64,000 nt of DNA, taken from positions 25,639-89,638 of the forward strand of contig JAAXOC010000110.1 in the NCBI GenBank assembly GCA_014237145.1, given 5' to 3'. The notes under the pieces were generated by a model. It worked only from the letters and a program-made list of their open reading frames with translations. It did not search any database and was not told where the DNA came from. Origin of the DNA: ANME-2 cluster archaeon. Its GTDB lineage: Archaea; Halobacteriota; Methanosarcinia; Methanosarcinales; Methanocomedenaceae. The position numbers were made by a program, and so were the translations under genes. Below, one piece after another: positions 19,690 through 40,887 of the stretch (its first letter is position 1; each line of letters starts with the position of its first letter).

Positions 19690-21381
19690 TTACTGTAACT
19701 TCTCCCCGCATTCCATGCAGAACTTCTCCCCTTCCTCCACAGCCCTGCCGCAATTTGGACAAGTGCGCCCACCTGCATCCATACCGGTCTCAATGTTCGA
19801 GCGCTGGACAACACTGTCTTTTATGGTAGTACTCCTGATATTATATTGAGTAATACTATCGTCCACAAATATCTTAATATCAGTCCTCTTTTCGATCTCC
19901 TCAAGCATCTTATGGTAAAAACCAATCAGTGCCTCCTGCTTTTCTGCCCATGCCTTGAGGATAAGCCGTGACTTGCGCTTACCCACTACCTCAACATAAG
20001 CAGCATACTGCAATCCGGTCGCCCCTTTTGCATAGAATCTGGCAACACCTGTGAATAACTGGGGGGTTGAAGTTGTCTCAGGTTGTAGCATGAACAGGTT
20101 CATGTCCTTGAGCACTCTTGTTGATATATCGAACAGGTTTTCGGCAGGTATCTCCAGATCCTTTGAATCCTCTTCAGCTATGATCATTTTATTGACTGCC
20201 TCCCTCCATGCTTTCTCATCAGTCTCTTTTCTGGTGAGAACGGGACACACAATACTGACCATTTTATTCTCCATATCCATCTTGATTCGTTTCTTTGTGC
20301 TGTAATCGTAATAATCGATGCTGCCTGAGACTATGCAATCACCGCATTCGCCTGTTGGCCTGATCTCAAAGGTAACGGTCTTCCCCTCACCTGATTCAAG
20401 CATTGAGATGGATTTTTTCCTATCTTTCATAAAGAAAACATCAGGGACAAATAATGTAAATTTAATATCCCCGATAGGTTCAGGACCGTGGTTTTCCACC
20501 TTAACCTTATAATGGATTACAGCGCCCGGGTATTCAAAAGCTGATTTAACTTCAATAGGCTCTTCCCCTGACTTGAGTTGTGATGCTGGTGGTGCCGGCG
20601 GTTGGGAGGCGGCCGGCAGCGGCTCCGATTTGGACGCTGTTTTCCTGGATTTTTTCTTCCGCAATAAAAGTACCAGAATGAGCAGGAAGAATAATGGTAC
20701 CAGTATAATGGTTGCCAGAAAGATCAAACTCAAGATGGTAACAAAAAAATCTTCATCCCCGTTATCCACATAATAATCGTCACTGATAGCAGTTTCACCT
20801 ACTGTTGTCAGGTACTTTGTATAGTATGTGGTCTCCCCTGCATACACATAGATATCTTCTGTAATAGTGTAGAAGCCGTCCTTTACCAGTTCTACTTCAT
20901 AGTAACCTTCATTCAAGTTATCAATCCACAAATAGCCGGTGTTTACACCCTGATATTCACCGTCCAGGTACACATCCACATAAGCAGGGTCTGTATAAAT
21001 GGAAATAGTACCGTAGTTGATCGGTATGACATACTGGTGAACATTGGAGATCTTAACAACATTACCTGAAATGCCTGTGAATATATTCTCGATATCAAAA
21101 CTGAGGGTTAAATAACTGTCATCATAATAAAACTCAGACTCCAGATTGTAAGTCTGATATAGAACCTCTCCGCTGTTTGTTTTTAAAGAAAAAGTAACCT
21201 CACCATAATATGTATCGATATCCACCACATTCAGGTAATACCCCTGGGCGATCTCGATTGAATCCCCTTCATAAAGCATGTAAATGCTGTCTTGCCCGCT
21301 GGCTTGACTGAGAAAAATAAGGGACAAAATGAGTATTGCAATTGAAATTAATTTATGAGTTTGTATCAGCATTTTCAACAC
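19690..21381 (-). CDS. single-pass membrane protein: signal peptide + extracellular PEGA-like domain + TM + cytoplasmic conserved module + C-terminal zinc ribbon
   Basis: 563 aa; PEGA-like YVDVYLDGEYQGVNTGY...GYYEVELVKDGFY; TM ILSLIFLATIILVPLFFLLILVLLLRKKK; cytoplasmic ~150-aa domain (SIVCPVLTRKE...PQLFTGVARFYAKGATGLQYAAYVEVVGKRKSRLILKAWAEK...) shared with 26096..26692 and 28141..31173; ends VVQRSNIETG...CPNCGRAVEEGEKFCMECGEKLQ. Confidence 0.7.
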   Translation of the reverse strand: MLKMLIQTHKLISIAILILSLIFLSQASGQDSIYMLYEGDSIEIAQGYYLNVVDIDTYYGEVTFSLKTNSGEVLYQTYNLESEFYYDDSYLTLSFDIENIFTGISGNVVKISNVHQYVIPINYGTISIYTDPAYVDVYLDGEYQGVNTGYLWIDNLNEGYYEVELVKDGFYTITEDIYVYAGETTYYTKYLTTVGETAISDDYYVDNGDEDFFVTILSLIFLATIILVPLFFLLILVLLLRKKKSRKTASKSEPLPAASQPPAPPASQLKSGEEPIEVKSAFEYPGAVIHYKVKVENHGPEPIGDIKFTLFVPDVFFMKDRKKSISMLESGEGKTVTFEIRPTGECGDCIVSGSIDYYDYSTKKRIKMDMENKMVSIVCPVLTRKETDEKAWREAVNKMIIAEEDSKDLEIPAENLFDISTRVLKDMNLFMLQPETTSTPQLFTGVARFYAKGATGLQYAAYVEVVGKRKSRLILKAWAEKQEALIGFYHKMLEEIEKRTDIKIFVDDSITQYNIRSTTIKDSVVQRSNIETGMDAGGRTCPNCGRAVEEGEKFCMECGEKLQ

Positions 21382-21384
21382 ATA

Positions 21385-22485
21385 CTATATATTGTTATTT
21401 TTTGTCTCTTTTGGTTTTGCCTTAATATATTTTGGATTTTTCTCGCCAAAGGTCACATCCAGGATAGTACCTTTCCTAAGCTGTATTTTGATAAGTTTTT
21501 CAGCCCCATTATAATTCAAACCAAGTGCATCTTCCAGTTCCTGCACAGTGAAATGTTCATGGCTGTCCAGGAAACTTTCGAATATCTCGTCCAGTTTCTG
21601 TTTGTCATGTTCTGTATTGAACCAGCAGGCATAATGTTGTGCCATTTCATTTTTCCTATTAAAAGTTAGCTCCTCATTCAGGTCATAGAGATACAGGACA
21701 AAATTCGGATGCACAAATCTGAGAGTAAAATCTTTTATTTCCTCATCCCATGACCTGCTGAAAAGGCATACACATTTATGCTGGCCTTTTTTCAATTTAT
21801 TTGCATCTTTTTGTATCAGCTCGATCAACCGAACATCCTTTTTCTGATAGCGGGCTTCCAATACCAGCGGAACCTCAAGTAATGAACTTAATTTTGCTTT
21901 TATGTTATCATGTTCCTGGATATATTTCCAGTTCAAATCTCCGGCATAATCCCCGCCAAACAGGATTTCCGGCCTGTTCTTGCTGTACTTAGTCTGAAGC
22001 ATGTTCAGATAAAGATGTAATTCGTTCTTCAGATCCCGGGGTATCAATCCAATAGGGGACTCCTCTTTATTTGTGGATGCCTGGGATTGGTTTTTCAGTT
22101 CATCGGTTGGAATGAGCCTTGAATTGATGCTGTTTTCAAGATTATCAACTAAAATTGAGATACTTTTAACATGAATTTTCCCATTCAAATGTTCTTCTAA
22201 TCCGGAAATAAGTTCATAAGATGCTTGTTGTAATTGGTTTTCAGCAGTTATGAAATTGTCGTATGAATATATTTTTTTCTTAAATGCTGTAAGGTTTTTA
22301 TCTTGAACTTCCGCGGATAGGTTTGATAGTTTTTTTCGTAACTTTCGAAGTTCATGCGGTTTTTCAAAACTCCGGATCAATTTATAAAGGATTTGATTTG
22401 ATAATTCTATATTCTTCACTACACATTCAGTATTTACAGCCTGGACATTTACAAGTGAATTTATTTCCGGGGCATTATCTTGCAT
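21385..22485 (-). CDS. hypothetical protein in AT-rich island; coiled-coil N-half, possible PD-(D/E)xK-like nuclease C-half
   Basis: ORF 21385..22533 in track, likely start at internal ATG (MQDNAPEINS...); strongly AT-rich relative to flanks; GDYAGD...LEARYQKK segment weakly resembles restriction-endonuclease-like core. Confidence 0.4.
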   Translation of the reverse strand: MQDNAPEINSLVNVQAVNTECVVKNIELSNQILYKLIRSFEKPHELRKLRKKLSNLSAEVQDKNLTAFKKKIYSYDNFITAENQLQQASYELISGLEEHLNGKIHVKSISILVDNLENSINSRLIPTDELKNQSQASTNKEESPIGLIPRDLKNELHLYLNMLQTKYSKNRPEILFGGDYAGDLNWKYIQEHDNIKAKLSSLLEVPLVLEARYQKKDVRLIELIQKDANKLKKGQHKCVCLFSRSWDEEIKDFTLRFVHPNFVLYLYDLNEELTFNRKNEMAQHYACWFNTEHDKQKLDEIFESFLDSHEHFTVQELEDALGLNYNGAEKLIKIQLRKGTILDVTFGEKNPKYIKAKPKETKNNNI

Positions 22486-22747
22486 AATTTCACCCTCCAC
22501 TTTTAAAATTTTCAACTTTTCACCCCCATTCAAGATAAAACCTTTGAAGCCTTTGCTTGATGTGTTGCTGGCAAGAATGTTTGGATTATCATCTACATCC
22601 CTATGTGCGACCTGGGAACCAGATGCAATATGTTCTGCATGATGCCATTATCAATGTATTATTTGACCTGCATGCCCTTTTAGATTTCATTAAGCATTGC
22701 TGATAGAATCCTGCCACCTATTCGCATGCTATGACTGCCTGTCTTTA

Positions 22748-22925
22748 TCAGGCGTAGATCAATCTGCCCTTTGATGTTGGAATATTCCATCCCAGTTCTT
22801 TGGCTGTTTCTATCCATTCTTCAATTACAATAAGGGCGTTTCGAACGGCTTTTTTGCATGTCCTGCCGTCTGCCGTACCCTTACTGCTAATCCGTGGAGC
22901 ATACTTCGTGCTTCATAGGTCATTT
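22748..22925 (-). pseudogene. frameshifted remnant of a HicB-like (UPF0150) antitoxin
   Basis: Two frames on the reverse strand read MTYEARSMLHGLAVRVRQTAGHAKKPFETPLL* and KKAVRNALIVIEEWIETAKELGWNIPTSKGRLIYA*, together resembling a HicB-type antitoxin broken by a frameshift. Confidence 0.3.
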
Positions 22926-22935
22926 TAAAAACACC

Positions 22936-23232
22936 TTATGTGATCCGGGAATATTTTTTCAATTTTTCCCTTGCTTTTATACATTCATCGATCCAGTTTT
23001 TCAGAAGAACATTTGAACTGATACCTTCTTCAAGCGCAATTCCCCGCACTGACCTTGCACGTTCCTCACCCAGTGGAATGACCAGAACACCTTTATCCCG
23101 CTTAAATTCAACAGATATCTCATCATCATCCATGTCTTCAAAATAATCAGCTGAATCGTGGGTGTCCCAGAAGTCCCTCATTTCCTGTTCCGTCTTGAAC
23201 TGTGGAATTTTTTTCATCATTATACTATTCAC
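22936..23232 (-). CDS. BrnA-like antitoxin (type II TA)
   Basis: 98 aa; DSADYFED...LVIPLGEERARSVRGIALEEGIS pattern of BrnA family; overlaps toxin gene by 4 nt. Confidence 0.6.
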   Translation of the reverse strand: MNSIMMKKIPQFKTEQEMRDFWDTHDSADYFEDMDDDEISVEFKRDKGVLVIPLGEERARSVRGIALEEGISSNVLLKNWIDECIKAREKLKKYSRIT

Positions 23233-23498
23233 CTCTTAAGATATAATTTTTTTTCGCGTTTTGTCATATCTCTTGCAGTAATTATCCGGACAACTCCTGT
23301 CCCGAGATATAAATATACAACAAACAAATACCGCCCACTACTTGTTTGACCATAAACATACCGCGTCCCATCCCTCCCGATCCTGAAATATGGATCACCA
23401 ATGAACACACTTTCAACTTCGAATTTGGTTACGTTATGCCTCCACTGAATGTGTTTTTCATTTTCTTCATCCCATTGAAATTCTATTATTTTAATCAA
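23229..23498 (-). CDS. BrnT-like (DUF497) toxin
   Basis: 89 aa; FEWDEEK-type N-terminus (FQWDEENEKHIQWRHNV) and RIITARDMTKREKKLY C-terminus. Confidence 0.65.
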   Translation of the reverse strand: MIKIIEFQWDEENEKHIQWRHNVTKFEVESVFIGDPYFRIGRDGTRYVYGQTSSGRYLFVVYLYLGTGVVRIITARDMTKREKKLYLKR

Positions 23499-23650
23499 AA
23501 TGTTCCGCCTCGTTTAAGAAGTTCTCCAATCTCTCCCTTATCAATAACGACCTGGATATTGTGATCACACTTGATCCTGACTGTCGATTCATGTGCTATA
23601 CTTAGTATTTCATCCTTGTCGAGCTTTACTGGCCATATAATCTCCTTTTC

Positions 23651-24952
23651 TTACAATTTCGCTCCACATTCAAAGCAGAATTTCTCATCACCTTCAACCT
23701 CCTTACCACAATTTGAACACGTGATCTTACCTGCTCCTAAATTGGAACGCTGGATTACGGAATCACTTACTTGACTCCCGATTTTATCGCCTATATGAAT
23801 ATATTGTACTGTGCCATTGGTCGCAGGTTTCTCAATTGCTTCAGGCTTTCGCTTATATCGAAGAAGTAAACCGATTAACAGTAAAATAATTATTATACTA
23901 CCGATCAACACCCAGCCGGGTGGTATTGACAAAGTTCCGGGAGGTGTTGAACCTAGTGGATTTTCAGCTCCAATTATAACTGTAGGTTCCGGAGAAGTAT
24001 ATTTACGGACACGTACCCAATCTATATAATGGATTTCGCCACCCCATGAATATAACTGCAAATAGAGTTGATCATTTGGTATATTTTTTGTAACTGTTAT
24101 TTTAGGATCATATTGCCGGAATGTCTCTATTTTTTCTGATGACCTTGTCATTCCGAGAACTTCAAAGGAAGTTGGGAATCTTTCGTTATTTGTATTCGAA
24201 TGAAATATCTTATCATTAAGTGTTACCAAAAGCATTTCATCAGTATTTTCCCAGCTACCAAACTCAAATCTGTCGTTTGCATCAAGTATATTATAGTCAT
24301 TCGTTGAACGCAGCAAGGACTTTGGCAGATTGCCAGTATCGCTTATTTTTGAGAATGATTCGAAAATATGATCATATCCAAAGGCTTCGACCTTCTCAGA
24401 TACAATACAATCACCATTTAAACTCAAAACACTATCAGAAACTGAAGGTTTTCCGTAATTTATATGCCATTTCGATTCGTCTATTCCGGTCCCGCCAAAA
24501 TCATCAAAGAAATCAAATGTTGCTTCGCCATTACTTACTTCGATTGCTGACGGATTGTTATAGTACATCAGCAATTTGGTTTCACCATTTGCCGGGATTC
24601 TTGGTACTTTTACCCAAATTATTGCTTTATTGCTGCTGTAATCCCACAATTCGATCCAGTGAGTGAGTTCCTTACTATTTTCATCTGCAAATCTTATGTC
24701 AATACCATCGGGTTTTGCTTCAAGTGGGAAATTCGTTCCTGAAAGTTCTACAAGCACTTGAAAATCTACAAGGGTTTTTCCACTATTTTCCTGTACGCTT
24801 ATCTCCTCATAGTCCTCCCATGATCCACCTCCCGAATTCGACAATGTGGGAGATGCCACGTGCTTATGAGACCTGCTATCAGCACCAACGCAATAATCCC
24901 TATCGCAAAGGTGTGCACCGCAGAACGCATTCGTATTGTCATAATATTTCAC
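23651..24952 (-). CDS. membrane protein with DUF2341 + concanavalin/LamG-like ectodomain, single TM and C-terminal zinc ribbon tail
   Basis: 433 aa; DUF2341 signature (DGIDIRFADENSKELTHWIELWD...AIIWVKVPRIPANGETKLLMYYNN); TM GWVLIGSIIIILLLIGLLLRYKRK; tail SVIQRSNLGAGKITCSNCGKEVEGDEKFCFECGAKL. Confidence 0.7.
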   Translation of the reverse strand: MKYYDNTNAFCGAHLCDRDYCVGADSRSHKHVASPTLSNSGGGSWEDYEEISVQENSGKTLVDFQVLVELSGTNFPLEAKPDGIDIRFADENSKELTHWIELWDYSSNKAIIWVKVPRIPANGETKLLMYYNNPSAIEVSNGEATFDFFDDFGGTGIDESKWHINYGKPSVSDSVLSLNGDCIVSEKVEAFGYDHIFESFSKISDTGNLPKSLLRSTNDYNILDANDRFEFGSWENTDEMLLVTLNDKIFHSNTNNERFPTSFEVLGMTRSSEKIETFRQYDPKITVTKNIPNDQLYLQLYSWGGEIHYIDWVRVRKYTSPEPTVIIGAENPLGSTPPGTLSIPPGWVLIGSIIIILLLIGLLLRYKRKPEAIEKPATNGTVQYIHIGDKIGSQVSDSVIQRSNLGAGKITCSNCGKEVEGDEKFCFECGAKL

Positions 24953-25009
24953 CGCTCTTAATTTCGCTTCATACTCAGATAGTTTTTATTATTTCCTGGA
25001 ACGGTTTAT

Positions 25010-25077
25010 AACCACAGAGTGCACAGAGAGCACAGAGAAAACAATAACGCTCTGTGCCCTCTGTGTTCTCCGTGGTT
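25010..25077. repeat. short palindromic CACAGAG-type intergenic repeat, copy 2
   Basis: aaccacagagtgcacagagagcacagag...ctctgtgccctctgtgttctccgtggtt; same termini and core as 16827-16891. Confidence 0.7.
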
Positions 25078-25134
25078 GATCTTCTTTGCCATGATCCATA
25101 AGGTTTGCATCTACTACTACCGCTACTTAACGAA

Positions 25135-25383
25135 CTATGCTTTCGCAGCAATTCGAAATACCGATTCTTGATGAGATTTTATTTTTTTTACAGATATTTC
25201 TTCCACTGTTTTTTCTATGTACTCATCCGACTCTGCTGTTAAGTATTCCATGCCGCAGATCGTGCAAATATCTGCATCAACATTTTCAATCGCAATTAAT
25301 CCTTGTTCAGATTCGGTGATGAATTTGGTTTTACTTCGTTCCATTTTTCCACCGCAATCAGGACATTTTTTTAATCTTGCCAT
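25135..25383 (-). CDS. YgiT-type zinc-finger protein (MqsA-like antitoxin N-domain)
   Basis: 82 aa; CPDCGG...CTICGMEY four-cysteine arrangement. Confidence 0.55.
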   Translation of the reverse strand: MARLKKCPDCGGKMERSKTKFITESEQGLIAIENVDADICTICGMEYLTAESDEYIEKTVEEISVKKIKSHQESVFRIAAKA

Positions 25384-25516
25384 ATCTACCTACTTTTCAG
25401 CCCATGGGGTCTGGTTTATTATTTTAACTTTGTACTGGATAATAGCACCCTTTTCTTCGACTTTCTCTGAAACAATCCATTCACCACCGTGATTCCAGAT
25501 CGGTTCACCATATATT

Positions 25517-25774
25517 TCAGGCAACAACCTCCTCGTATGCGTAGGTATGCCCGATCAAGCGATATGCTTCAGTAAATCCCTGCTCAAGCTCTTTTCGGAT
25601 TTTCTGCATATTCTCATTAGTTTTTTTTGCATAGTAACGTTCTCCGCATTTCGTGCATACACCAGCTTCGATCGTGAGTACTGCTGAATTACAGCCTCCT
25701 ATAACGACCTTTTCTACTGTTTTCTCGACCACCTCGCCTCCGCAGTGGGGACAGACCGGGATTATCTTTTTCAT
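25517..25774 (-). CDS. YgiT-type zinc-finger protein (putative antitoxin partner of DUF4258)
   Basis: 85 aa; CPHCGG...CTKCGERYY. Confidence 0.6.
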   Translation of the reverse strand: MKKIIPVCPHCGGEVVEKTVEKVVIGGCNSAVLTIEAGVCTKCGERYYAKKTNENMQKIRKELEQGFTEAYRLIGHTYAYEEVVA

Positions 25775-25779
25775 TTATT

Positions 25780-26112
25780 TCACCTCTTTGGTTTTCTCAT
25801 TTTATAATTAATCCACCTTTCAGGGTCAGGTATATATGCAGCTATAAGCACTGCGATTTCATGCTTTTCTGAATGTGCCCAAACACTGTGGATATGCCTG
25901 TTATTTTTATCATTACCACATATAAGACAGCTTGGAAATGGTTTATCGTCAGCATAGTCTTCTATCACTTCACCATGCAGTACTGAAAAATACAGGTCAT
26001 TATCTTCGATAGCATCATTTGCAAGCTCATCATCTGCATGGTCTGAGATGTTTACATTTCCTTTTCGTATAGCTTCCTGTATTTTTGCATTTCCATCAGC
26101 TATTTCCTCCAA
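25780..26112 (-). CDS. DUF4258-family protein (putative toxin)
   Basis: ORF 25780..26190 in track overlaps upstream gene; a TTG at 26110-26112 is a plausible start; C-terminal HIHSVWAHSEKHEIAVLIAAYIPDPERW resembles DUF4258. Confidence 0.45.
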   Translation of the reverse strand: MEEIADGNAKIQEAIRKGNVNISDHADDELANDAIEDNDLYFSVLHGEVIEDYADDKPFPSCLICGNDKNNRHIHSVWAHSEKHEIAVLIAAYIPDPERWINYKMRKPKR

Positions 26113-26692
26113 GTTTCGCCCCGCACCCAAGGCAGAATTTCTCGTTAGCTTCCACTTCCCTGCCGCATTCGGGACATTGTGCCCTTGCACCGAGGTCGAT
26201 GTTTGAGCGCTGGATGATGTTATCTTTTATTTCAGTCTTGTGTACATGATACTGGATTATCCCCTCTTCAATGAATATCTTGATGTCAAGCCTTTTCTCG
26301 ATCTCATCCAGAATCCTGTGATAAAAGCCAGTCAGAGCTTCCTCCTTCTCAGCCCATGCCTTGAGTATCATCCTGGATCTGCGCCCGCCTACTACTTCAA
26401 TATAGGCGGCATAACGCAGTCCGGCAGCACCTTCGGCATAGAACATGCCCACGCCTGTGAATAACTGGGGTGTGGATGTGATCTCCGGCGGTATCATGTA
26501 CATGCTCATATCTTTCAGTATACGGGTGGCTATATTGAACAGGTTCTCTGCCGGGATGTCAAGGTCTTTGGTGTTCTCTTCGGCTTTTATCAGTTCTTCG
26601 GTTGCATTTCTCCAGCTGTCCTCGTCGATATCTTTTCTTTTCAGGACCGGGCAGACAATGCTTATCATTTTCTTTTTGATGTCAATAAACAC
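26096..26692 (-). CDS. soluble paralog consisting only of the conserved cytoplasmic module + zinc ribbon
   Basis: 198 aa; roughly two-thirds identical by eye to residues ~365-563 of the 19690..21381 product (SIVCPVLKRKD...PQLFTGVGMFYAEGAAGLRYAAYIEVVGGRRSRMILKAWAEKEEAL...IIQRSNIDLGARAQCPECGREVEANEKFCLGCGAKL); no TM. Confidence 0.65.
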   Translation of the reverse strand: MFIDIKKKMISIVCPVLKRKDIDEDSWRNATEELIKAEENTKDLDIPAENLFNIATRILKDMSMYMIPPEITSTPQLFTGVGMFYAEGAAGLRYAAYIEVVGGRRSRMILKAWAEKEEALTGFYHRILDEIEKRLDIKIFIEEGIIQYHVHKTEIKDNIIQRSNIDLGARAQCPECGREVEANEKFCLGCGAKLGGNS

Positions 26693-26710
26693 CGGACTGC
26701 GACCCCAATT

Positions 26711-27775
26711 CTACGTATCCGCAATCACCTCTCGCACCGCAAGCAAATCCAGTCTCGACTGGGCCCTCATCATATTCTCTGATGGGTCTACGAAAATAAT
26801 GTTATTTCTTACAAGATAGCTTATCTCTGGCGTAATATGCCCATACGCATGGTTCACGTTCTCTTTTAACTTTGATAACTCCTCTACTAAGTTATCATAG
26901 ACAACTTCGTGAAGTTCTCCTCGAAACTCGATCTCCTCTCCGTAAGCCAGAAGAGAATTTAATAATTCGCTTATCTGGCTCATTCTGACCTTTAGCATCT
27001 TCGCAACCATTTTCTCCACATCTTCTACCCTTGTTAGTTCTACAAGGTAAACTGGCTTACCCCCGCAATAATTCCATGCAAGTTCCTTCTCTTTCTCGCT
27101 AAATTCATAGTTCTCCAAAAAACCCATTGTCGTATCTTTATCAAAATCGTCCACCAGCAGATATCTGCACCGCCCGGAGAGCATCGCCTCACTATAAACC
27201 TGCTCGATGAAGAGTGAATCCGATGAAACAGCAAAAATGTGGCACAGATGTAATTCCTTTGTCAGTCTGATAAAAAAATTAAATAATTTATACATCAATA
27301 ATTCATTGATCTTTATGTCTCCAATCACCTGCAGCTCATCGATGATCAACACCGGAATGCGGTTTTTTGATATCTCTGTAAAGAACTGCTCGATGTATTT
27401 GAACATATCTTTGCTTTTATCTTTCTTTTCAAATATCCGCTCAAACAGATTTATTGGTATCGGAATTCCACTGACTGCTCCCAGATCCTTTATTATCGAT
27501 TTCGCATACTCGGAAACGTTATCAACCCCGCCCCTCTCGTCGATCTCGAATAGGATGTTTAAGAAGTCTTCATAGTCAGTAATGAACCTCCCACGCAGAT
27601 TGACGTAGAAAGGGGCATAATCATCTGGCAGTTCTTTAACCAGATGGCTAATCATTGTGGTCTTTCCGCTGTTGATCGGACCGTAGACAAACGTTATCAG
27701 GGATGGCTCTGCATTCAGAATATCCATGATCTCTTTCGTCTCCTTTTCCCTATCGTAAAATTCAATTCGTCTCAT
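26711..27775 (-). CDS. archaeal ATPase (PF01637-like P-loop NTPase with C-terminal wHTH)
   Basis: 354 aa; RRIEFYDREKE...FVYGPINSGKTT Walker A, LIIDELQ Walker B context typical of Arch_ATPase. Confidence 0.75.
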   Translation of the reverse strand: MRRIEFYDREKETKEIMDILNAEPSLITFVYGPINSGKTTMISHLVKELPDDYAPFYVNLRGRFITDYEDFLNILFEIDERGGVDNVSEYAKSIIKDLGAVSGIPIPINLFERIFEKKDKSKDMFKYIEQFFTEISKNRIPVLIIDELQVIGDIKINELLMYKLFNFFIRLTKELHLCHIFAVSSDSLFIEQVYSEAMLSGRCRYLLVDDFDKDTTMGFLENYEFSEKEKELAWNYCGGKPVYLVELTRVEDVEKMVAKMLKVRMSQISELLNSLLAYGEEIEFRGELHEVVYDNLVEELSKLKENVNHAYGHITPEISYLVRNNIIFVDPSENMMRAQSRLDLLAVREVIADT

Positions 27776-27857
27776 ATTCTTTCCCTCCTCATGTATGCCG
27801 CCAGCAACCCGATGATCGCGCCAACCACCACGAATCCGGGCGTGCTCATCCCATGGA

Positions 27858-28094
27858 TCACCCCATTATCCCCATTCCCTGAACTATCCACCAAATCATT
27901 CCCTGACCCTTATCGAAATGCCACTTTGCGACAAGCCCGGCATTCCCCTGCACCGACACCATAGCCCCGCAGTGTGGACACTTACTCACCTTTGCACCTG
28001 CCCCTACCCCTGCCGAAACCGGCTTAGCCGCATCCATCAACTTAGCATCCAGCTCCTGCCTGCGGTAGGCATCCTTGCGCTCCCTATCCTTCAT
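27858..28094 (-). pseudogene. orphan duplicated 3' fragment of the SPFH-zinc-ribbon gene (zinc-ribbon tail cassette), frameshifted
   Basis: DNA 27900-28094 aligns at about 90% identity by eye with 31350-31560 (3' end of 31347..32654); translation MKDRERKDAYRRQELDAKLMDAAKPVSAGVGAGAKVSKCPHCGAMVSVQ then diverges by frameshift. Confidence 0.65.
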
Positions 28095-28140
28095 AAATAT
28101 GATCTTGTCCTCCTTTCATACTCAGTATAATCTCCTCTTT

Positions 28141-31100
28141 TCACAATTTTGCCCCGCACTCAAGACAGAACTTCTGTTCATCCTCAACCTCTATGCCGCA
28201 GTTTGGGCACTTCTTCGTACCTGCGCCAATAGTTGACCGCTCGACATTAGAATCCTTAATGTGGATGCTTACATTGTTGGCATTATTTGCAATACTACTC
28301 CTACGCACCCAGCTATCCTCTATTACCACATTTCCATCGCATATTCCATTAATATCGCAGGCGCCTAAAAGGTTGCTCCGCATTATTTGGGAATCTTTGA
28401 TGGAGACATTGAATACAGGTGCGAGTTTTCCAAGAGCTTCTCCTCTTTTTGAAAAATTTCGTCCAAGCTCAGCAAACAAACCTATTATATCTTCCTGATC
28501 CGGAGCTGCCACAAAGATTTCAATTCTTTCAGTCTCTTTGCTTACACTTGCCTTGATTACAAGATCGATCATCTTAACCTTTGTCTTTCCGTAGTACCAT
28601 GTCTCATAGGTCTTGTCATCAGTAGTCTTAAAAGTCCTCACATGGCGCACATCATGCATTTGGATGACCTCGCGGCACAGTGTCAGTGCCTTATTTATAC
28701 TAACTCCACTGGGCAGTAAAAATTCCTTACTGCTCTGGGCAGGAAGCGAGGCAACAAGTTCCTTCAGCCTGCCAATATTTATGTCCTGCTCGGTTTTGAA
28801 CAATGGGCATACGATTGGAATTTTTACAGGTTCCATTCTAACCAAATCAGGTTTACCATAAGCATCTTTGTAGTCAATCCTGCAATTAATTACCCCACCC
28901 TTCGAGCAGATTAAGCCCTCAAAATACAATACGATTGTTTTATCGCCATTTGATGCTATATTTCCAAGCTGAATCTTTTCCTTTTTCATAGCATAAGTAT
29001 TTGGTTCGTGATGATCGAATCTCAAGACGTTCTCATCATGCTCGATATCAAGGGAGACATCTGTGGCTGTAAGCTGCATTTTGTTTTGTACTGATATTTT
29101 AAGACGGATAAACCCATTGAAGAAATCATCTTTTCGGAGAACCACAAACTTATTGGAATCAGTCATAACCTTTTCACTTGGACTCGTAACACTTTCCCCT
29201 GCCGTCTCTATGTCTGTACTTATCTGGATTATTGCTGTATCCTCAGTCTTGTAGACTCTATCCAAAATATCTTTAAATTCTACAACGTAGTCGACTGGAA
29301 CTTCTCCTTTTTCAGTTGGTTTTATGTTAACATTTATAGTTTTTTGCTTACCAGCCTCAAGTCTTTTGATAATTTTAAAGTCTCGCACCTCAAGAGCTGT
29401 TAAGAAAGTAATCGTTATGGCTACGGCATGAGCAGTTCCCTTGTTTGTTACTATTAAATCCCGATGTTTCCAGGCTTTGTACTCCATCTTTGGTGGCAGT
29501 TCTATGCTAATTGAAGGCTTGCTTTCGTCAATTAATTGTTCAGTTGTGCCCCTACTCTTATTAGCGTAACTTATCGCACTGTTGTAATCATTTGCATCAA
29601 AAGCAGACTGTGCTTTGGTGTTTAGTTCTTCACCACTCTGCACTGTGACGCCAAGCTTTTTGGCTTTTTCCAGTGAATTTTTCGCAATTTTTATTTTTTC
29701 TGCTGTATCAGTTCGCAACTGCTCTAACTCTCTCTGCTTGCGTGCCTGTTCTGCTTTTTGTTGTTCATAATCCTTCACTGCAATATTTATATTTTCACTG
29801 CATTTGTGTGCATACTCTTTAGCAGTTGCAAAATGTCCTGCATCAACTTCTTTTCGTGCGTCCTGCAACAATTGTTGAATACTCTGTTGAATATTCACGC
29901 CTCTGTTCATCGCATCCTGTAAATCAATTTCTACATCTTGAATGGCTGACTTTGCTTTTTCTAGCGGTGAATAGTTTTTAGTAGGTATAAAATTAGGTTC
30001 TAATGCTGAACGTTTTGCTGGCTTATGTGACTTTTGGGATGAAGTTTGTATCACTTCCGGCGCCATTCTCCTTCTTTTTCCAACAGCGACAATGCCACCT
30101 AATACAATCATAGCGCCTACCCCAATAAATAACCAGTTTGTATCATTTATATCACTTGTGGCTGGTATGGAATTAACGTTTAACAGATGGACACCATTGC
30201 CCCCAACTGCAAGAAAAGATCCGTCAGGAGAGGTTGAAACACTATGGACAAAAAAAGGTGTGTTATAAGTCCATAGTTTTTTGCCATTTCGGTTAAAGAA
30301 GTGGACTAAGCCGCCATTGCCTCCTGCTGCCACAAAGGAGCCATCTGTTGAGATAGAAACTCCCCAGATATCCTCATGCTTTATATTTCCCCAGAAATCT
30401 TTCTTCGCATTATAATTCCAGAGTTCAGCGCCATTATGGTCTAATAGGTAGATATTTCCATTCGTACCTCCTGCTGCCACATAGGAACCATCAGCAGATA
30501 TGGAAATTTTTTGGACACTTCTGTCATCATTTATAGCATATAAATCATAGTTCCAGAGTTTTTTACCATCGCCATTAAAGAGATATATATCAGAATCCAT
30601 TACAGCGGCGATAGAAGAACCATCTGCAGATATAGCGATGTCGTCTACTTCATGAACTGTATCATAAGTCCAAAGTATTTCACCATTGAGATTGAAAAGG
30701 TAGATGGTCCCATTTGGATGGTTTCGCCAGTCACCACTACCGACTGCCACATAGGCTCCATCTGAGGACATTGCGATGCCATTAACTTTATCAGATATAT
30801 TATAGTTCCATAGTTTCTCACCATCAAGATTAAACAGATAAACATTGTTATTATCCCAACCAACTCCCGCTGCCACATAAGAACCATCGTCGGATATAGC
30901 GACATCCCAAACAGCATATTCCATTTTATAGTTCCATAATTTTTCACCATTATTATTGAGGAGGATAACATTACCCATCTGTTCACCATAGCTATCACCA
31001 CTACCAACCGCAATATAGGAACCGTCAGCAGACATGGCGACATCCCAAGCAATCTGATCAAGTTCATAATTCCAATCGAAGTAATCTATTGGCTCTGTAG

Positions 31101-31173
31101 CTACTACACCTTGGACTTGACAAATAATAAGAATTAAAAAAAATAGTGATTTTTTACTTAATGACATATTCAT
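28141..31173 (-). CDS. large single-pass membrane protein: extracellular multi-blade beta-propeller + TM + coiled coil + beta-sandwich domains + conserved module + zinc ribbon
   Basis: ORF 28141..31248; likely start MNMSLSKKSLFFLILIICQVQG (signal peptide); ~8 repeats of SxDGSYVAxG...LWNY; TM WLFIGVGAMIVLGGIVAVGKRRR; QQKAEQARKQRELEQLR coiled coil; IVCPLFKTEQD segment; C-term SNVERSTIGAGTKKCPNCGIEVEDEQKFCLECGAKL. Confidence 0.7.
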   Translation of the reverse strand: MNMSLSKKSLFFLILIICQVQGVVATEPIDYFDWNYELDQIAWDVAMSADGSYIAVGSGDSYGEQMGNVILLNNNGEKLWNYKMEYAVWDVAISDDGSYVAAGVGWDNNNVYLFNLDGEKLWNYNISDKVNGIAMSSDGAYVAVGSGDWRNHPNGTIYLFNLNGEILWTYDTVHEVDDIAISADGSSIAAVMDSDIYLFNGDGKKLWNYDLYAINDDRSVQKISISADGSYVAAGGTNGNIYLLDHNGAELWNYNAKKDFWGNIKHEDIWGVSISTDGSFVAAGGNGGLVHFFNRNGKKLWTYNTPFFVHSVSTSPDGSFLAVGGNGVHLLNVNSIPATSDINDTNWLFIGVGAMIVLGGIVAVGKRRRMAPEVIQTSSQKSHKPAKRSALEPNFIPTKNYSPLEKAKSAIQDVEIDLQDAMNRGVNIQQSIQQLLQDARKEVDAGHFATAKEYAHKCSENINIAVKDYEQQKAEQARKQRELEQLRTDTAEKIKIAKNSLEKAKKLGVTVQSGEELNTKAQSAFDANDYNSAISYANKSRGTTEQLIDESKPSISIELPPKMEYKAWKHRDLIVTNKGTAHAVAITITFLTALEVRDFKIIKRLEAGKQKTINVNIKPTEKGEVPVDYVVEFKDILDRVYKTEDTAIIQISTDIETAGESVTSPSEKVMTDSNKFVVLRKDDFFNGFIRLKISVQNKMQLTATDVSLDIEHDENVLRFDHHEPNTYAMKKEKIQLGNIASNGDKTIVLYFEGLICSKGGVINCRIDYKDAYGKPDLVRMEPVKIPIVCPLFKTEQDINIGRLKELVASLPAQSSKEFLLPSGVSINKALTLCREVIQMHDVRHVRTFKTTDDKTYETWYYGKTKVKMIDLVIKASVSKETERIEIFVAAPDQEDIIGLFAELGRNFSKRGEALGKLAPVFNVSIKDSQIMRSNLLGACDINGICDGNVVIEDSWVRRSSIANNANNVSIHIKDSNVERSTIGAGTKKCPNCGIEVEDEQKFCLECGAKL

Positions 31174-31346
31174 AATACCCCATGAAGTTGGTTTAATTTC
31201 AAGTCTTATTATGTTCTTCCCACAGTTTATACACTTGCGGACACCCATACCAATATTTAACCGTTAGATGTCGTATATTTTACTTAAAAACACGTGTTTA
31301 CTACCAATATATAGATTTATTTCCAAATATCAATACCCTTTTTTTT

Positions 31347-32654
31347 TCAATCCATCTTCCCCCCACACTCCCCACAGAACTTCGCCTGCACCGGCACCAT
31401 AGCCCCGCAGTGTGGACACTTCCTCAACTTCGCACCAGAACTTGCACCTACCCCTGCCGATACCGGCTTGGCCGCATCCATCAATTTAGCATCCAGTTCC
31501 TGCCTTCGGTAAGCATCCTTGCGCTCCCTGTCCTCAACCCCCTTCATAAACTCAACCTTTTCATCTTTCGCTTTTGCCTCGCTTTCCCTAACCTTAGCCA
31601 GCGCCTCGATCTGCTCCGCCGAAAGATTACTCAACTCACGCCCTTCACTAATAGTCTTCGCAACATCGGCACCGTCCGCCTCAGTAACAGTCTTCATATA
31701 CTCCATATCCCGGCCGTGCTCTCTATCCTTCATATCCTGCTCAACCTCAAGCTCGGCACGCATACCCCTGGCCTTTGAAAGGTGCATCTCCTCCTTTAGC
31801 TTCAATGCCTCACGGGCCGCCTTGATATCTGCCTCGTCCTCTCGCTGCTCTCTTTCAATCTGTGCCCGAACATCTTTAAGCTCCTGCTCCCGCCTGAAAT
31901 CCTTTTCAACTGATATGGGAGCATGTCTGGCCCGTACTCCAGCCACATCCACCCTGCCTTCCCTTTCCAGTCCCCCCTCCTTCGAGATAGTATCAAGTTC
32001 AGCCAGTTCTTCCCCTGTCTGGAACTCCTGGTGAGCTTCAAGTATAGTCTTGTATTCGCCAAGGTCCCACTCTGCCGTATGTTTCAACAGTTCCAGGCCC
32101 CACATATCCAGTGTCTGTTCAAGCTGGGATTCCAGTTCATTCTCGATTGTGATCTGCAAGTCCCGGTTGCCGTATATATCTTCCATAGGCATACGGCTGA
32201 TCTCAGGTTCAAGTACCCGTGTCAATACCTCGCTCTGCAGGCGTGCGTATATATCCCGGACTCCAAGGGCACGTTCACCTTTCTTATCAGTAGTTGAATA
32301 AGCATATACCATTGAAAAGAACCGTTTTATATCCCCTATCTTGAAACGAATTAACCCGCTGCAACCAAGTTTCTGTTTATCTGCTGTCCAGAGTTCACCC
32401 ATGTTCCAGTTAAGGTCTTTGGGCGAAGTGTCCATTATGACTACATCCACGTCCTTTAAAAAATTCCCGGGTTTCAGCAATCCGCCGACACGGATCTTCC
32501 CGCTGTCCAGTACATCTGTTACCTCGCCGTTCTTGACTATCACAGCTTTTTCATTAGGCTGGATGATCAGGTCCTTTTTAAGGATACCACCCACCTGGTT
32601 TTTCGGTATATTCCTGGCAATATCACTTACATCTCGCAACCATTTCCGGGCCAT
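31347..32654 (-). CDS. SPFH/band-7 (flotillin-like) domain protein with long coiled coil and C-terminal zinc ribbon
   Basis: 435 aa; N-terminal SPFH-like segment (NEKAVIVKNGEVTDVLDSGKIRV...DVDVVIMDTSPKDLNWN...LIRFKIGDIKRFF), E/R/K-rich coiled coil, tail KCPHCGAMVPVQAKFCGECGGKMD; no TM helix. Confidence 0.6.
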   Translation of the reverse strand: MARKWLRDVSDIARNIPKNQVGGILKKDLIIQPNEKAVIVKNGEVTDVLDSGKIRVGGLLKPGNFLKDVDVVIMDTSPKDLNWNMGELWTADKQKLGCSGLIRFKIGDIKRFFSMVYAYSTTDKKGERALGVRDIYARLQSEVLTRVLEPEISRMPMEDIYGNRDLQITIENELESQLEQTLDMWGLELLKHTAEWDLGEYKTILEAHQEFQTGEELAELDTISKEGGLEREGRVDVAGVRARHAPISVEKDFRREQELKDVRAQIEREQREDEADIKAAREALKLKEEMHLSKARGMRAELEVEQDMKDREHGRDMEYMKTVTEADGADVAKTISEGRELSNLSAEQIEALAKVRESEAKAKDEKVEFMKGVEDRERKDAYRRQELDAKLMDAAKPVSAGVGASSGAKLRKCPHCGAMVPVQAKFCGECGGKMD

Positions 32655-32902: not shown

Positions 32903-33460
32903 ATGGGATTGTTAAGTAAAAAAATATCACCGGATGAACTGAAAACAAAATTGTCTATCCACGAGCAGCGGCTCACAGCCAGGGAAAACGAACTAAAGAA
33001 AAAGAAAGACAGATCCAGGGAAGAGTCAAAACAGGCCCTGGCGTCCGGTAACGACAGAGAGTACAGGGTATCTTCACGCAGGTACAGCATGCTTGACGGG
33101 CAGGTCGGCACCATAAGCAATATGGTGGAGATGGCACAGAGCATGACCGATGTCATAGAAATGCAGCAGGGTCTGAAAGAAGTAGTGGAGATCGGGAACG
33201 ACCTGGGCAAATACCAGAAGCAGCTGGGTATCAATACCGGACAACTTGAAGGTGCTATCACAAATATCAGGACAAGCATGGAGAAGGTCAACGTTGCTAC
33301 TAACACCATGACATCAGCCATGGATGCAGCTATGAGCGGGGGCCAGGAACTGACTGATGTGCAGGACAGTTTAAGAGCCGAACTGATGGCTGAGATCGAA
33401 GGCGATTCAGTCGATAAGCAGGAACTGGACAAGCAGATCAAGGAAGAGTTGAAGCAGTAA
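32903..33460 (+). CDS. ESCRT-III family protein (Snf7/CHMP-like)
   Basis: 185 aa; N-terminus MGLLSKKISPDELKTKLSIHEQRL... closely parallels CHMP2 (MDLLFGRRKTPEELLRQNQRALNRAMRELDRE...); basic N-half, acidic C-half, all coiled coil. Confidence 0.7.
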   Translation: MGLLSKKISPDELKTKLSIHEQRLTARENELKKKKDRSREESKQALASGNDREYRVSSRRYSMLDGQVGTISNMVEMAQSMTDVIEMQQGLKEVVEIGNDLGKYQKQLGINTGQLEGAITNIRTSMEKVNVATNTMTSAMDAAMSGGQELTDVQDSLRAELMAEIEGDSVDKQELDKQIKEELKQ

Positions 33461-33509: not shown

Positions 33510-33989
33510 ATGGCAAGCGATATTGACTTAGATAATGAAATATCTGTAACACCTGAACAGATCATCTGGATGTTAAGTTCATGTGACAAGGACTTTATTA
33601 TTGATATTCCAACCATATTGATCAACAATGCAGATCGAATTGATTTTAATGAATTGATCAATATTGCTTTTGAAGCTGGATCAGGTTACAGTTTACTTGC
33701 GCTTATCGATGTGGCAAATAAGTTGGAGCACAATGATGCTTTTTTCAAGGTACTGTCCCGGCAGTATCCTTCTAACATTGAGGGAAATGTAATTGAAGAT
33801 AATATTTTTCCAGTCCATAAGTTCAGGCAGCTGATAAAGCGGTCTTTTTTAGAGAGGATCGAGGAGCGGTGGAATGTTCGTATTGCTTTCACATTTGATG
33901 ATTTCTATAAAATATACCGTGACTATCATCTGCTGCCTGTGCATGGTGAGGGATTAAGGAAATATTTTGGTGATATTATTGAGATTTAA
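33510..33989 (+). CDS. hypothetical protein between ESCRT-III-like and Vps4-like genes
   Basis: 159 aa, acidic, no recognisable domain. Confidence 0.4.
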   Translation: MASDIDLDNEISVTPEQIIWMLSSCDKDFIIDIPTILINNADRIDFNELINIAFEAGSGYSLLALIDVANKLEHNDAFFKVLSRQYPSNIEGNVIEDNIFPVHKFRQLIKRSFLERIEERWNVRIAFTFDDFYKIYRDYHLLPVHGEGLRKYFGDIIEI

Positions 33990-40771: not shown

Positions 40772-40887
40772 ATTTTCTCCTCCTTTTATTATTTTGTATT
40801 TAATAATTGATTTCCATCTCCCTTATGCTATTATTAACTTTTCGTTTTAATCATAGCATAAAGTAGGTACTCATTATTGTCAAGTGT

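What the first reader, a model, noticed from the sequence alone, without database searches (positions are those of the whole stretch)
19690..32654. Cluster of five paralogous genes sharing a C-terminal zinc-ribbon module grafted onto unrelated N-terminal sensor-like domains
Five genes in about 13 kb end with the same tail. They are 19690..21381, 23651..24952, 26096..26692, 28141..31173 and 31347..32654, and the tail is [IV]xQRS[NT][IL]..G + CPxCGxxVExxxKFCxxCGxKL, a treble-clef zinc ribbon. Three of them also share a ~150-aa cytoplasmic domain (SIVCPVL[KT]RK...PQLFTGV..FYA.GA.GL.YAAY.EVVG.R.SR.ILKAWAEK). The N-terminal parts are completely different. One has a PEGA ectodomain, one DUF2341/LamG, one an 8-bladed beta-propeller with a coiled coil, one an SPFH/flotillin domain, and one has none. 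The architecture is a variable extracellular domain, a single TM helix, and a constant intracellular tail. That suggests a modular receptor or adaptor family whose common cytoplasmic module feeds one shared downstream partner. I do not recognise the ~150-aa domain or this tail as a named family. The cluster is interleaved with an archaeal ATPase (PF01637-like) and several TA modules, and it sits beside an ESCRT-III/Vps4 pair.
Basis: partly seen in the sequence, partly recalled or inferred. Interest (0 to 1): 0.85.

Follow-up and report, generated by a model that had tools for sequence, protein, structure and literature searches.

The report
Archaeal ESCRT locus with adaptin-like adaptors
The five tail-sharing genes are real, but they belong to an archaeal membrane-remodelling (ESCRT) gene cluster described by comparative genomics in 2024, and their "unknown" 150-residue domain is the platform half of an adaptin-appendage-like fold.

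The parts
19690..21381 (-). Gene A (563 aa): signal peptide, S-layer-like/PEGA ectodomain, TM (res 222-240), Ig-like subdomain (20230-20556), platform subdomain (19882-20217), disordered linker with DSVVQRSNI (19765-19881), zinc ribbon (19693-19764).
21385..22533 (-). Conserved 382-aa partner with no Pfam hit. It sits in the same position as the 'coiled-coil + C-terminal wHTH' protein WP_013898572 of the published Methanosalsum locus.
   Evidence: Homologs in 28 of 61 loci and 18 of 26 fully flanked loci. The paper's table annotates the neighbouring gene. PDB profile hits to wH/homeodomain proteins at res 363-423 are only weak.
22936..23498 (-). BrnT/BrnA-type toxin-antitoxin pair; probably an insertion, not part of the system.
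   Evidence: Pfam BrnT_toxin and CopG_antitoxin. No TA pair appears among the conserved core genes of the related loci, but the TA genes themselves were not used as queries against the loci.
23651..24952 (-). Gene B (433-aa ORF): DUF2341 (LamG-like) ectodomain, TM (res 346-364), then directly the linker plus zinc ribbon tail (23654-23815) with no appendage. Its signal peptide is out of frame (24799-24942).
   Evidence: Pfam DUF2341 111 bits. Intact orthologs with a signal peptide in L019 and L025. 4-nt difference and frame analysis. L033 carries DUF2341 plus appendage plus tail in one 707-aa protein.
25135..26190 (-). DUF4258 toxin-like gene plus two small MqsA-like zinc-ribbon antitoxin-like genes; probably insertions.
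   Evidence: Pfam.
26096..26692 (-). Gene C (198 aa): platform subdomain (26273-26665) plus linker and zinc ribbon (26099-26272). It is the 3' remnant of a larger gene.
   Evidence: 92-95% identity to the last 192 aa of 655-973-aa proteins in L019, L023, L024 and L025, with no upstream match in the window. The same truncated arrangement appears in three assemblies.
26711..27775 (-). PF01637 archaeal ATPase. It abuts the truncation point of C; likely an insertion, not a system component.
   Evidence: Pfam 187 bits. Found in 0 of 61 related loci.
28141..31248 (-). Gene D (1035 aa): signal peptide, 7-repeat beta-propeller, TM (res 372-390), coiled coil, extra Ig-like domain, Ig-like subdomain (28813-29148), platform (28432-28776), three DSxxxRS repeats (28213-28431), zinc ribbon (28144-28212).
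31347..32654 (-). Gene E (435 aa): SPFH/Band_7 (32085-32567), long charged coiled coil, zinc ribbon (31350-31421). No TM and no QRSN linker.
   Evidence: Pfam Band_7 44.9 bits. Orthologs immediately upstream of the A-type gene in most of the ESCRT-linked loci shown, and present in 31 of 61 loci. Tails compared. Equivalent to arCOG15283.
32903..33460 (+). ESCRT-III/Snf7-like protein (185 aa).
   Evidence: The window copy has no Pfam hit. Nine of 11 orthologs (66-77% identical) hit Snf7 PF03357, best E 5.6e-5. It lies next to Vps4 in the ESCRT-linked loci, with one small gene between them in the window, L019 and L024.
33510..33989 (+). 159-aa protein of unknown function between ESCRT-III and Vps4. 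Lineage-specific.
   Evidence: No Pfam or PDB hit. Homologs only in L019 and L024.
34231..35373 (+). Vps4/CdvC-like AAA+ ATPase with an N-terminal MIT-like domain.
   Evidence: Pfam AAA 146 bits; MIT 25.4 bits, below its cut-off of 30. NCBIfam CdvC 256 bits, below the equivalog cut-off.

Best explanation
The region 19.7-35.4 kb is a 'Meth_adaptin'-type archaeal ESCRT locus from an ANME-2-like Methanosarcinales genome.

**Core genes**
- Vps4 (MIT plus AAA+).
- An ESCRT-III/Snf7-like protein.
- An SPFH-coiled-coil-zinc-ribbon scaffold (E).
- A coiled-coil/wH-like protein (21385-22533).
- Single-pass membrane proteins of arCOG15284 (A and D).

**Architecture of A and D**
Each displays a variable ectodomain outside the cell. 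In the cytoplasm each carries an adaptin-appendage-like unit (Ig-like sandwich plus platform), then a disordered linker with a conserved DSx[VI]QRS[NT][IL] motif, then a zinc ribbon.

**Proposed mechanism (inferred by analogy, not shown)**
- The ectodomains bind cargo or envelope ligands.
- The appendage acts as a hub for short linear motifs.
- The linker plus zinc ribbon tail, whose zinc ribbon is shared with the SPFH protein, brings the receptors and the SPFH scaffold to the same membrane patch.
- There ESCRT-III polymerises, and Vps4 remodels it for budding, sorting or repair.

**State of this particular locus**
- B is a derivative that kept only the ectodomain, TM and tail. It is frameshifted here.
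- C is a truncated remnant.
- The ATPase (shown) and the TA genes (presumed) are insertions.
For: **Fold**
- Foldseek: the top 15 hits are all COPI-gamma or AP-2 appendages, E 1.8e-10 to 1.9e-6 over about 245 columns.

**Published description**
Searches show that the paper describes two appendage proteins, one with a zinc ribbon, an SPFH-coiled-coil-zinc-ribbon protein, a coiled-coil-wHTH protein, Vps4 and ESCRT-III.

**Synteny**
- 61 related loci were found, nearly all Methanosarcinales.
- The order X382-like / D-like / Vps4 / ESCRT-III, then divergently SPFH / A-like, recurs in Methanolobus, Methanococcoides, Methanomethylovorans, Methanoperedens and ANME-like MAGs.
- 17 of 26 fully flanked loci carry ESCRT-III, Vps4 and SPFH.

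**Tail**
- The linker motif is conserved in 56 A-type ORFs and repeated in D-type tails.
- It lies in a segment with pLDDT below 50.
- It is also attached to a DUF2341-TM protein, a HEAT-repeat protein and a small protein in related loci.
Against: - No experiment exists for any component. The paper's functional reading is itself an inference.
- Single-sequence Pfam hits to Alpha_adaptinC2 are sub-threshold (best E 0.0039), and no platform family is hit.
- The window's own ESCRT-III-like protein has no Pfam hit.
- ProX, listed as a Meth_adaptin component, was not found among the genes I examined in the window.
- 9 of 26 fully flanked loci carry an appendage-zinc-ribbon gene with no ESCRT gene within 10 kb.
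- B and C are damaged here, so this particular locus may be partly decaying.
- The binding partner of the tail and the direction of membrane deformation are unknown.
Confidence: 0.8

Rival explanations
1. Psp-like envelope-stress and membrane-repair module. The ectodomains sense envelope damage. The SPFH scaffold and the ESCRT-III (PspA-superfamily) protein patch the membrane. Vps4 recycles the polymer. No cargo sorting or vesicle formation is involved.
For: In Bacillus, ESCRT-III is homologous to PspA/Vipp1 and an SPFH protein (YdjI) localises PspA, as cited in the paper. SPFH is tightly linked to the ESCRT-III-like gene here. The window's ESCRT-III-like protein is too divergent for Snf7 to be detected directly.
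Against: The Vps4-type MIT-AAA ATPase, the adaptin-like interaction hubs and the many alternative ectodomains (PEGA, propeller, DUF2341, FGE-sulfatase, PH) fit selective recognition better than generic damage sensing. No PspA Pfam hit was seen.
Confidence: 0.25
2. Transmembrane signalling receptors. The shared cytoplasmic module relays ligand binding to one downstream effector, for example the wH-containing 382-aa protein acting as a transcription factor, independently of ESCRT.
For: The architecture is receptor-like. The 382-aa partner is conserved and may end in a wHTH. Some appendage-zinc-ribbon genes sit away from ESCRT genes.
Against: There is no kinase, cyclase, HAMP or other signalling output domain. 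The cytoplasmic module is a protein-interaction fold typical of coat adaptors. In ESCRT systems wH domains mediate protein-protein contacts. Synteny with ESCRT-III/Vps4/SPFH is strong.
Confidence: 0.1
3. A defence or mobile island. The tail-sharing surface proteins, TA modules and PF01637 ATPase together form an anti-virus or mobile-element cassette.
For: GC is lower (0.38-0.45) from 20 to 36 kb than in much of the flanking sequence. There are a BrnT/BrnA pair, a DUF4258 toxin-like gene with two MqsA-like antitoxin-like genes, and an STAND-like ATPase. There are signs of rearrangement: C is truncated and B is frameshifted.
Against: The ATPase is absent from all 61 related loci, while the ESCRT core is conserved across genera. 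The TA genes and ATPase therefore look like secondary insertions into a chromosomal ESCRT locus flanked by housekeeping genes.
Confidence: 0.05
4. Chance clustering of generic zinc-ribbon proteins with no common function.
For: The zinc ribbon alone is a generic PF13240 element, found widely in bacteria and archaea. E shares nothing else with the others.
Against: The ribbon pattern occurs 5 times in 64 kb, all in this cluster, and the linker motif occurs only here. Homology extends over about 290 residues between A and D. Synteny is conserved.
Confidence: 0.02

Closest known systems
Meth_adaptin ESCRT system (Makarova, Tobiasson, Wolf, ... Koonin, mBio 2024, 15:e00335-24; arCOG15284 appendage proteins, arCOG15283 SPFH protein; type locus Methanosalsum zhilinae WP_013898571-WP_013898578)
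   Same: The component set matches: Vps4, ESCRT-III, SPFH-coiled-coil-zinc-ribbon, two adaptin-appendage (Ig plus TBP/platform) proteins with a zinc ribbon, and a coiled-coil/wHTH protein. It is in the same taxonomic order (Methanosarcinales). Gene order is conserved in 17 fully flanked loci.
   Different: - In the window the membrane-bound members have the ectodomain at the N-terminus and the appendage plus zinc ribbon at the C-terminus. The published example WP_013898578 has the appendage at the N-terminus and GOLD at the C-terminus.
- The ectodomains are PEGA, beta-propeller and DUF2341 rather than GOLD.
- No ProX was found among the genes examined.
- There is an extra lineage-specific 159-aa gene.
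- There are extra paralogs, one truncated and one frameshifted.
- TA and ATPase genes are inserted.
- The conserved DSxxQRS linker motif is not discussed in the main-text passages I read.
Eukaryotic AP-2 alpha/beta2, AP-4 beta and COPI gamma appendage ('ear') domains
   Different: - Sequence identity is 6-13%.
- Pfam thresholds are not met.
- The module is attached to a TM helix and ectodomain instead of a HEAT trunk.
- It is followed by a zinc ribbon.
- Ligand-pocket residues were not checked.
- There is no clathrin or coat partner.
Halo_adaptin ESCRT system (same paper)
   Same: WD40/PQQ-like propeller plus Ig-like 'adaptin-like' proteins next to a Vps4-like ATPase and an ESCRT-III/PspA-like protein. 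Gene D has a similar propeller plus Ig arrangement.
   Different: In Halo_adaptin the ATPase lacks MIT and only Ig-like domains (no platform) are reported. Here MIT-like, platform and SPFH-zinc-ribbon elements are all present.
Bacterial PspA-YdjGHI (SPFH/flotillin-dependent PspA recruitment)
   Same: An SPFH protein is genetically linked to an ESCRT-III-superfamily protein.
   Different: The bacterial system has no Vps4 and no appendage proteins. Membership of the 185-aa protein in the PspA branch was not detected.

Membership tests
Meth_adaptin ESCRT system | Vps4-type ATPase (MIT plus AAA+) in the locus | tested here: met
   Gene 34231-35373: AAA 146 bits, AAA_lid_3, MIT 25.4 bits (below its cut-off of 30), CdvC model 256 bits over the full length. 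Placement in the Meth_adaptin clade of the Vps4 tree was not tested.
Meth_adaptin ESCRT system | ESCRT-III/Snf7 family protein adjacent to Vps4 | tested here: inconclusive
   The window protein has no Pfam or PDB hit. Nine of 11 orthologs at 66-77% identity hit Snf7, best E 5.6e-5.
Meth_adaptin ESCRT system | SPFH protein with coiled coil and C-terminal zinc ribbon (arCOG15283) | tested here: met
   Gene E: Band_7 44.9 bits, DZR 26.5 bits, four Cys. Orthologs in 31 of 61 loci.
Meth_adaptin ESCRT system | Two proteins with an adaptin appendage region (Ig plus TBP/platform), at least one with a zinc ribbon (arCOG15284) | tested here: met
Meth_adaptin ESCRT system | ProX substrate-binding protein gene in the locus | tested here: not met
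   No ProX-like gene appears among the Pfam-scanned ORFs from about 9.7 to 41.7 kb. In Methanolobus loci the corresponding slot holds an Ig-like 421-aa protein.
Meth_adaptin ESCRT system | Coiled-coil plus C-terminal wHTH protein next to the core | tested here: inconclusive
   The 382-aa gene is conserved in 28 loci at the equivalent position. Similarity to wH/homeodomain proteins in the PDB profile search is only weak.
Adaptin appendage domain (Pfam Alpha_adaptinC2 PF02883 plus platform families such as PF09066 and PF02296) | Two-subdomain fold: Ig-like beta-sandwich followed by an alpha/beta platform | tested here: met
Adaptin appendage domain (Pfam Alpha_adaptinC2 PF02883 plus platform families such as PF09066 and PF02296) | Sequence match above Pfam gathering thresholds | tested here: not met
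   Alpha_adaptinC2 is hit only at E 0.0039 (2 of 16 A-type) and 0.033 (5 of 27 D-type). No platform family is hit. The paper reports HHpred 98% to 2IV8_A for arCOG15284 members.
Adaptin appendage domain (Pfam Alpha_adaptinC2 PF02883 plus platform families such as PF09066 and PF02296) | Conserved aromatic ligand-binding pockets that bind DPF/W, FxDxF or WxxF motifs | not tested
   The family has invariant W/F/Y positions (W128, Y195, W214, F224, Y225 in the A fragment), but they were not superposed on the known pockets.
Adaptin appendage domain (Pfam Alpha_adaptinC2 PF02883 plus platform families such as PF09066 and PF02296) | Linked by a hinge to an N-terminal HEAT-repeat trunk | tested here: not met
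   In A and D the module follows a TM helix and ectodomain. HEAT repeats occur only on a separate tail-bearing protein in L029 and L039.
PF13240 Zn_Ribbon_1 | Two CxxC knuckles about 10-14 residues apart, with an HMM score above 25 bits | tested here: met
   A 28.9, B 27.3, C 29.4 and D 33.1 bits. E scores 23.2 bits (just below) but has all four Cys.
SPFH/Band 7 | PF01145 above its gathering score | tested here: met
   E scores 44.9 bits against a cut-off of 23.6.

The most novel reading that the evidence does not exclude
The disordered DSx[VI]QRS[NT][IL] linker plus zinc ribbon may be a portable ESCRT-targeting tail. It would dock separately encoded modules onto one site: appendage-bearing receptors, an appendage-less DUF2341 receptor, a HEAT/Adaptin_N-like trunk protein (in L029 and L039) and, through the zinc ribbon alone, the SPFH scaffold. 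That would assemble an adaptor coat in trans whose trunk and ear are fused in eukaryotic adaptins. The linker motif could also be the ligand of the platform subdomain.
Probability: 0.2. Interest if true: 0.65.

Novelty: new member of a known kind. Interest (0 to 1): 0.35.

Why it matters
Adaptin-like ears, SPFH scaffolds and ESCRT-III/Vps4 in one operon of a non-Asgard archaeon bear on how eukaryotic trafficking parts originated. That point was made in 2024, so the window mainly adds an ANME-2-like example.

The practical value is threefold:
- The cytoplasmic unit can now be annotated correctly as Ig-like plus platform, then linker, then zinc ribbon.
- The truncated gene C and the frameshifted gene B should not be read as designed architectures.
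- The conserved linker motif and the tail-bearing HEAT protein give a concrete, testable handle on how the components find each other. Cultured Methanolobus and Methanococcoides strains carry the same core and may allow such tests.

Tried and rejected
- **Pfam and NCBIfam on the ~150-aa module:** no hit.
- **PDB sequence profile search with A1:** only Ig-like or ribosomal zinc-ribbon noise.
- **First homology search with C:** only 35 clusters, which understated the family. The genome scan found 61 loci.
- **Tail-only profile search:** it returned only fragments under 100 aa and generic double zinc ribbons, so it gave no information on architectures.
- **First hhalign A1 versus A5:** E 3.7e-50, but discarded as circular because A1 contained D. 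It was redone without D.
- **Exact-match lookup of A:** failed, presumably because of the choice of GTG start. The Vps4 lookup worked.
- **The 185-aa and 159-aa proteins against PDB:** nothing informative.
- **afdb50 fold library:** unavailable.
- **Supplement lookup on the preprint:** empty. The journal version worked.
- **Recent gene conversion between the tails:** unlikely on indirect evidence. They are only 47-58% identical at the protein level, and B's tail looks most like the Methanoperedens-type linker. DNA-level identity was not compared.
- **Defence-island reading:** rejected because the ATPase is absent from all 61 related loci while the ESCRT core is conserved.

Full report
**1. Checking the observation**

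The ORF list shows all five genes on the minus strand:
- A: 19690-21381, 563 aa.
- B: 23651-24952, 433 aa.
- C: 26096-26692, 198 aa.
- D: 28141-31248, 1035 aa.
- E: 31347-32654, 435 aa.

Pfam confirms the N-terminal domains: PEGA in A, DUF2341 in B (111 bits), a beta-propeller in D and Band_7/SPFH in E. It also gives the zinc ribbon as PF13240 Zn_Ribbon_1, above its cut-off in A-D and just below it in E.

A hydropathy scan finds one TM helix followed by a basic cluster in A, B and D. It finds cleavable-looking N-terminal hydrophobic segments in A and D.

A six-frame regex scan of the whole window finds the ribbon pattern exactly five times, all in these genes. The linker motif occurs five times, in A, B, C and twice in D. 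A looser pattern shows three copies in D. The clustering is therefore not chance.

All-against-all BLASTP shows how far the paralogy actually extends:
- A and C share 64% identity over 195 aa.
- A and D share 22% over 381 aa (63.9 bits).
- B shares only about 45 C-terminal residues with A, C and D.
- E shares only the 24-28-residue ribbon.

So 'the same tail' holds for four genes. E has a different linker, as its orthologs also show. D has seven blade repeats by motif, not eight.

**2. What the ~150-aa module is**

Homologs of C are typically about 290-aa units. Each has a CARDB-like beta-sandwich, the ~150-aa alpha/beta module, the linker and the ribbon.

An AlphaFold2 model of the cytoplasmic part of A has mean pLDDT 79.9. 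It shows a beta-sandwich, then a helix-strand-helix-four-strand-helix domain, a linker with pLDDT below 50, and a small ribbon.

The remaining high hits are generic Ig-like sandwiches. In Foldseek the top 15 hits are all COPI-gamma, AP-2 beta2 or AP-2 alpha appendages. They have E 1.8e-10 to 1.9e-6 over about 245 columns, covering both subdomains. TM-scores are low because the inter-domain angle differs.

A profile-profile comparison of the A-type family (with D excluded) against the D-type family gives 98.6% probability and E 7.9e-16 over 286 columns. An earlier comparison was circular and is disregarded.

At the single-sequence HMM level only sub-threshold Alpha_adaptinC2 hits appear.

**3. 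This is a published system**

Makarova et al. (mBio 2024) define a 'Meth_adaptin' clade of archaeal ESCRT loci. Its components are:
- Vps4.
- ESCRT-III.
- An SPFH protein with a coiled coil and zinc ribbon (arCOG15283).
- Two proteins with the adaptin appendage region, comprising Ig-like and TBP-like domains (arCOG15284). One has a zinc ribbon and one is fused through a TM linker to GOLD.
- A coiled-coil plus wHTH protein.
- ProX.

Their HHpred table gives 98% to the AP-2 beta1 appendage for arCOG15284 proteins.

The window contains Vps4 (34231-35373) and an ESCRT-III-like gene (32903-33460). The window copy of the latter has no Pfam hit, but 9 of 11 orthologs hit Snf7, best E 5.6e-5. It also contains the SPFH-zinc-ribbon gene E, the appendage proteins A and D, and a conserved 382-aa gene (21385-22533) at the position of the coiled-coil/wHTH protein.

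**4. Conservation elsewhere**

A scan of one genome per GTDB species found 61 loci. Nearly all are Methanosarcinales: Methanolobus, Methanococcoides, Methanomethylovorans, Methanoperedens and ANME-like MAGs.

BLASTP of the window's proteins against all ORFs of these loci shows a recurrent order. The 382-aa homolog, a D-like protein, Vps4 and ESCRT-III lie on one strand. SPFH-zinc-ribbon and an A-like protein lie on the other.

Of the 26 loci with at least 18 kb held:
- 17 have ESCRT-III, Vps4 and SPFH.
- 18 have the 382-aa homolog.
- None has the PF01637 ATPase.
- 9 have an appendage-zinc-ribbon gene without ESCRT neighbours; these are extra paralogs elsewhere in the genome.

The flanks of the window locus are housekeeping genes: a radical SAM enzyme and pyruvate:ferredoxin oxidoreductase. 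The TA pairs and the ATPase therefore look like insertions. For the TA genes this rests on their absence from the conserved core, because I did not search the loci for them.

**5. Two of the five genes are damaged**

C is 92-95% identical to the last 192 residues of 655-973-aa PEGA/PQQ-TM-appendage-ribbon proteins. In the closest relatives (L019, L023, L024, L025) these lie directly downstream of SPFH. No match to their first several hundred residues lies next to C in the window. C starts inside the last strand of the Ig subdomain and abuts the ATPase gene. The same arrangement occurs in three independent assemblies, so it is not an assembly artefact.

B's orthologs (L019, L025) start with a signal peptide. 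In the window that peptide is encoded in another frame (24799-24942), and the sequence is 4 nt shorter than L025 at the junction. B as an ORF therefore lacks its export signal. This is either a real frameshift or a consensus error.

**6. The tail**

The linker motif is strongly conserved in 56 A-type ORFs across genera. It is repeated two or three times in D-type tails. SPFH tails have a different linker.

The motif sits in a segment that AlphaFold does not order. That is the usual signature of a short linear motif.

It is also found, with the ribbon, on proteins that lack the appendage:
- B and its orthologs.
- A 169-aa protein in L031.
- 289-aa HEAT-repeat proteins inside the ESCRT loci of L029 and L039. 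The L029 protein hits Adaptin_N PF01602 at 49 bits, above the cut-off of 37, although general HEAT models score higher.

L033 has DUF2341 plus appendage plus tail in one protein, a plausible ancestor-like form of B.

D-type appendages are fused elsewhere to FGE-sulfatase, bacterial PH, archaellin-like, PEGA and TPR modules.

The ribbon alone is generic.

**7. Mechanism**

What is shown:
- The fold.
- The domain order and topology signals.
- The conserved synteny with ESCRT-III, Vps4 and SPFH.
- The portability of the tail.

What is inferred, by analogy with adaptin ears and following the paper's hypothesis:
- The ectodomains select cargo or sense the envelope.
- The appendage is an interaction hub.
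- The tail and the SPFH ribbon bring the parts together at the membrane, where ESCRT-III and Vps4 act.

A Psp-like repair role is the main rival. Pure signalling, a defence island and chance are less likely, for the reasons given under each.

**8. Verdict**

The interpretation as an unnamed family is superseded. The locus is a new, partly decayed member of a known, computationally described and experimentally untested system. The conserved linker motif and the tail-bearing HEAT protein are modest new leads.

Noticed in passing
L029:1771-2640 (-) and L039:6211-7080 (+): These are 289-aa HEAT-repeat proteins. The L029 copy hits Adaptin_N PF01602 at 49 bits, above its cut-off of 37; the L039 copy scores 36.8 bits, just below it. 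General HEAT models score higher in both. Both end in the same DSxxQRS-type linker plus zinc ribbon and sit inside ESCRT loci (in L029 between the 382-aa homolog and the D-like gene). A trunk-like and an ear-like module thus carry the same tail on separate polypeptides.
   Followed up: partly
window 24799-24952: The signal peptide of gene B (MTIRMRSAVHTFAIGIIALVLIAGLISTW) is in a different frame from the mature protein. The window is 4 nt shorter than the ortholog in L025 at the junction. This is either a frameshifted pseudogene or a consensus error.
   Followed up: yes
window 26096-27775: Gene C is the 3' remnant of a 655-973-aa gene. The PF01637 ATPase gene ends 18 nt upstream of its start, and D plus the ATPase occupy the place where relatives have the 5' part of that gene. 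The same arrangement is seen in three assemblies.
   Followed up: yes
window 33510-33989 (+): A 159-aa gene lies between ESCRT-III and Vps4 with no Pfam or PDB similarity. Homologs were found only in the two closest loci (L019, L024). It may be a lineage-specific ESCRT accessory protein.
   Followed up: partly
L005:2817-4082 (-) and 10 other loci (9 Methanolobus, plus L029): A 421-aa protein with Ig-like domains (weak Transglut_C and TRAPPC13_C hits) occupies the slot between the 382-aa homolog and the D-like gene in many of these loci. In L006, L011 and L040 it lies downstream of the A-like gene instead. The published Methanosalsum locus lists ProX in its core. No homolog is present in the window.
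   Followed up: partly
P0161, P0170-P0176, P0185, P0189; L037:16025-17935: D-type appendage regions are fused to a C-terminal FGE-sulfatase (formylglycine-generating enzyme-like) domain. Others are fused to a bacterial PH domain (P0172, P0175, P0179), an archaellin-like domain (P0164) or TPR repeats (L026:13150-15303).
   Followed up: no
window 31171-31248: The longest ORF of D begins with MGVRKCINCGKN, half a zinc knuckle, 26 residues upstream of the signal-peptide Met. It is unclear which start is used.
   Followed up: no
window 22936-23498 and 25135-26190: A BrnT/BrnA toxin-antitoxin pair, and a DUF4258 toxin-like gene with two small MqsA-like zinc-ribbon proteins, are interleaved with the ESCRT genes.
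   Followed up: partly
window 39827-41724 (-): A multihaem c-type cytochrome gene lies next to a cytochrome b561-like gene. This fits an ANME-2/Methanoperedens-like organism. The window matches NCBI assembly GCA_014237135.1, contig JAAXOE010000062.1.
   Followed up: partly
window 19690-21381, residues 510-559: There is a weak NCBIfam hit (E 0.001) of the linker plus ribbon to the C-terminus of 'zinc ribbon-containing (seleno)protein DG' (NF049953). A similar tail may exist in an unrelated family.
   Followed up: no
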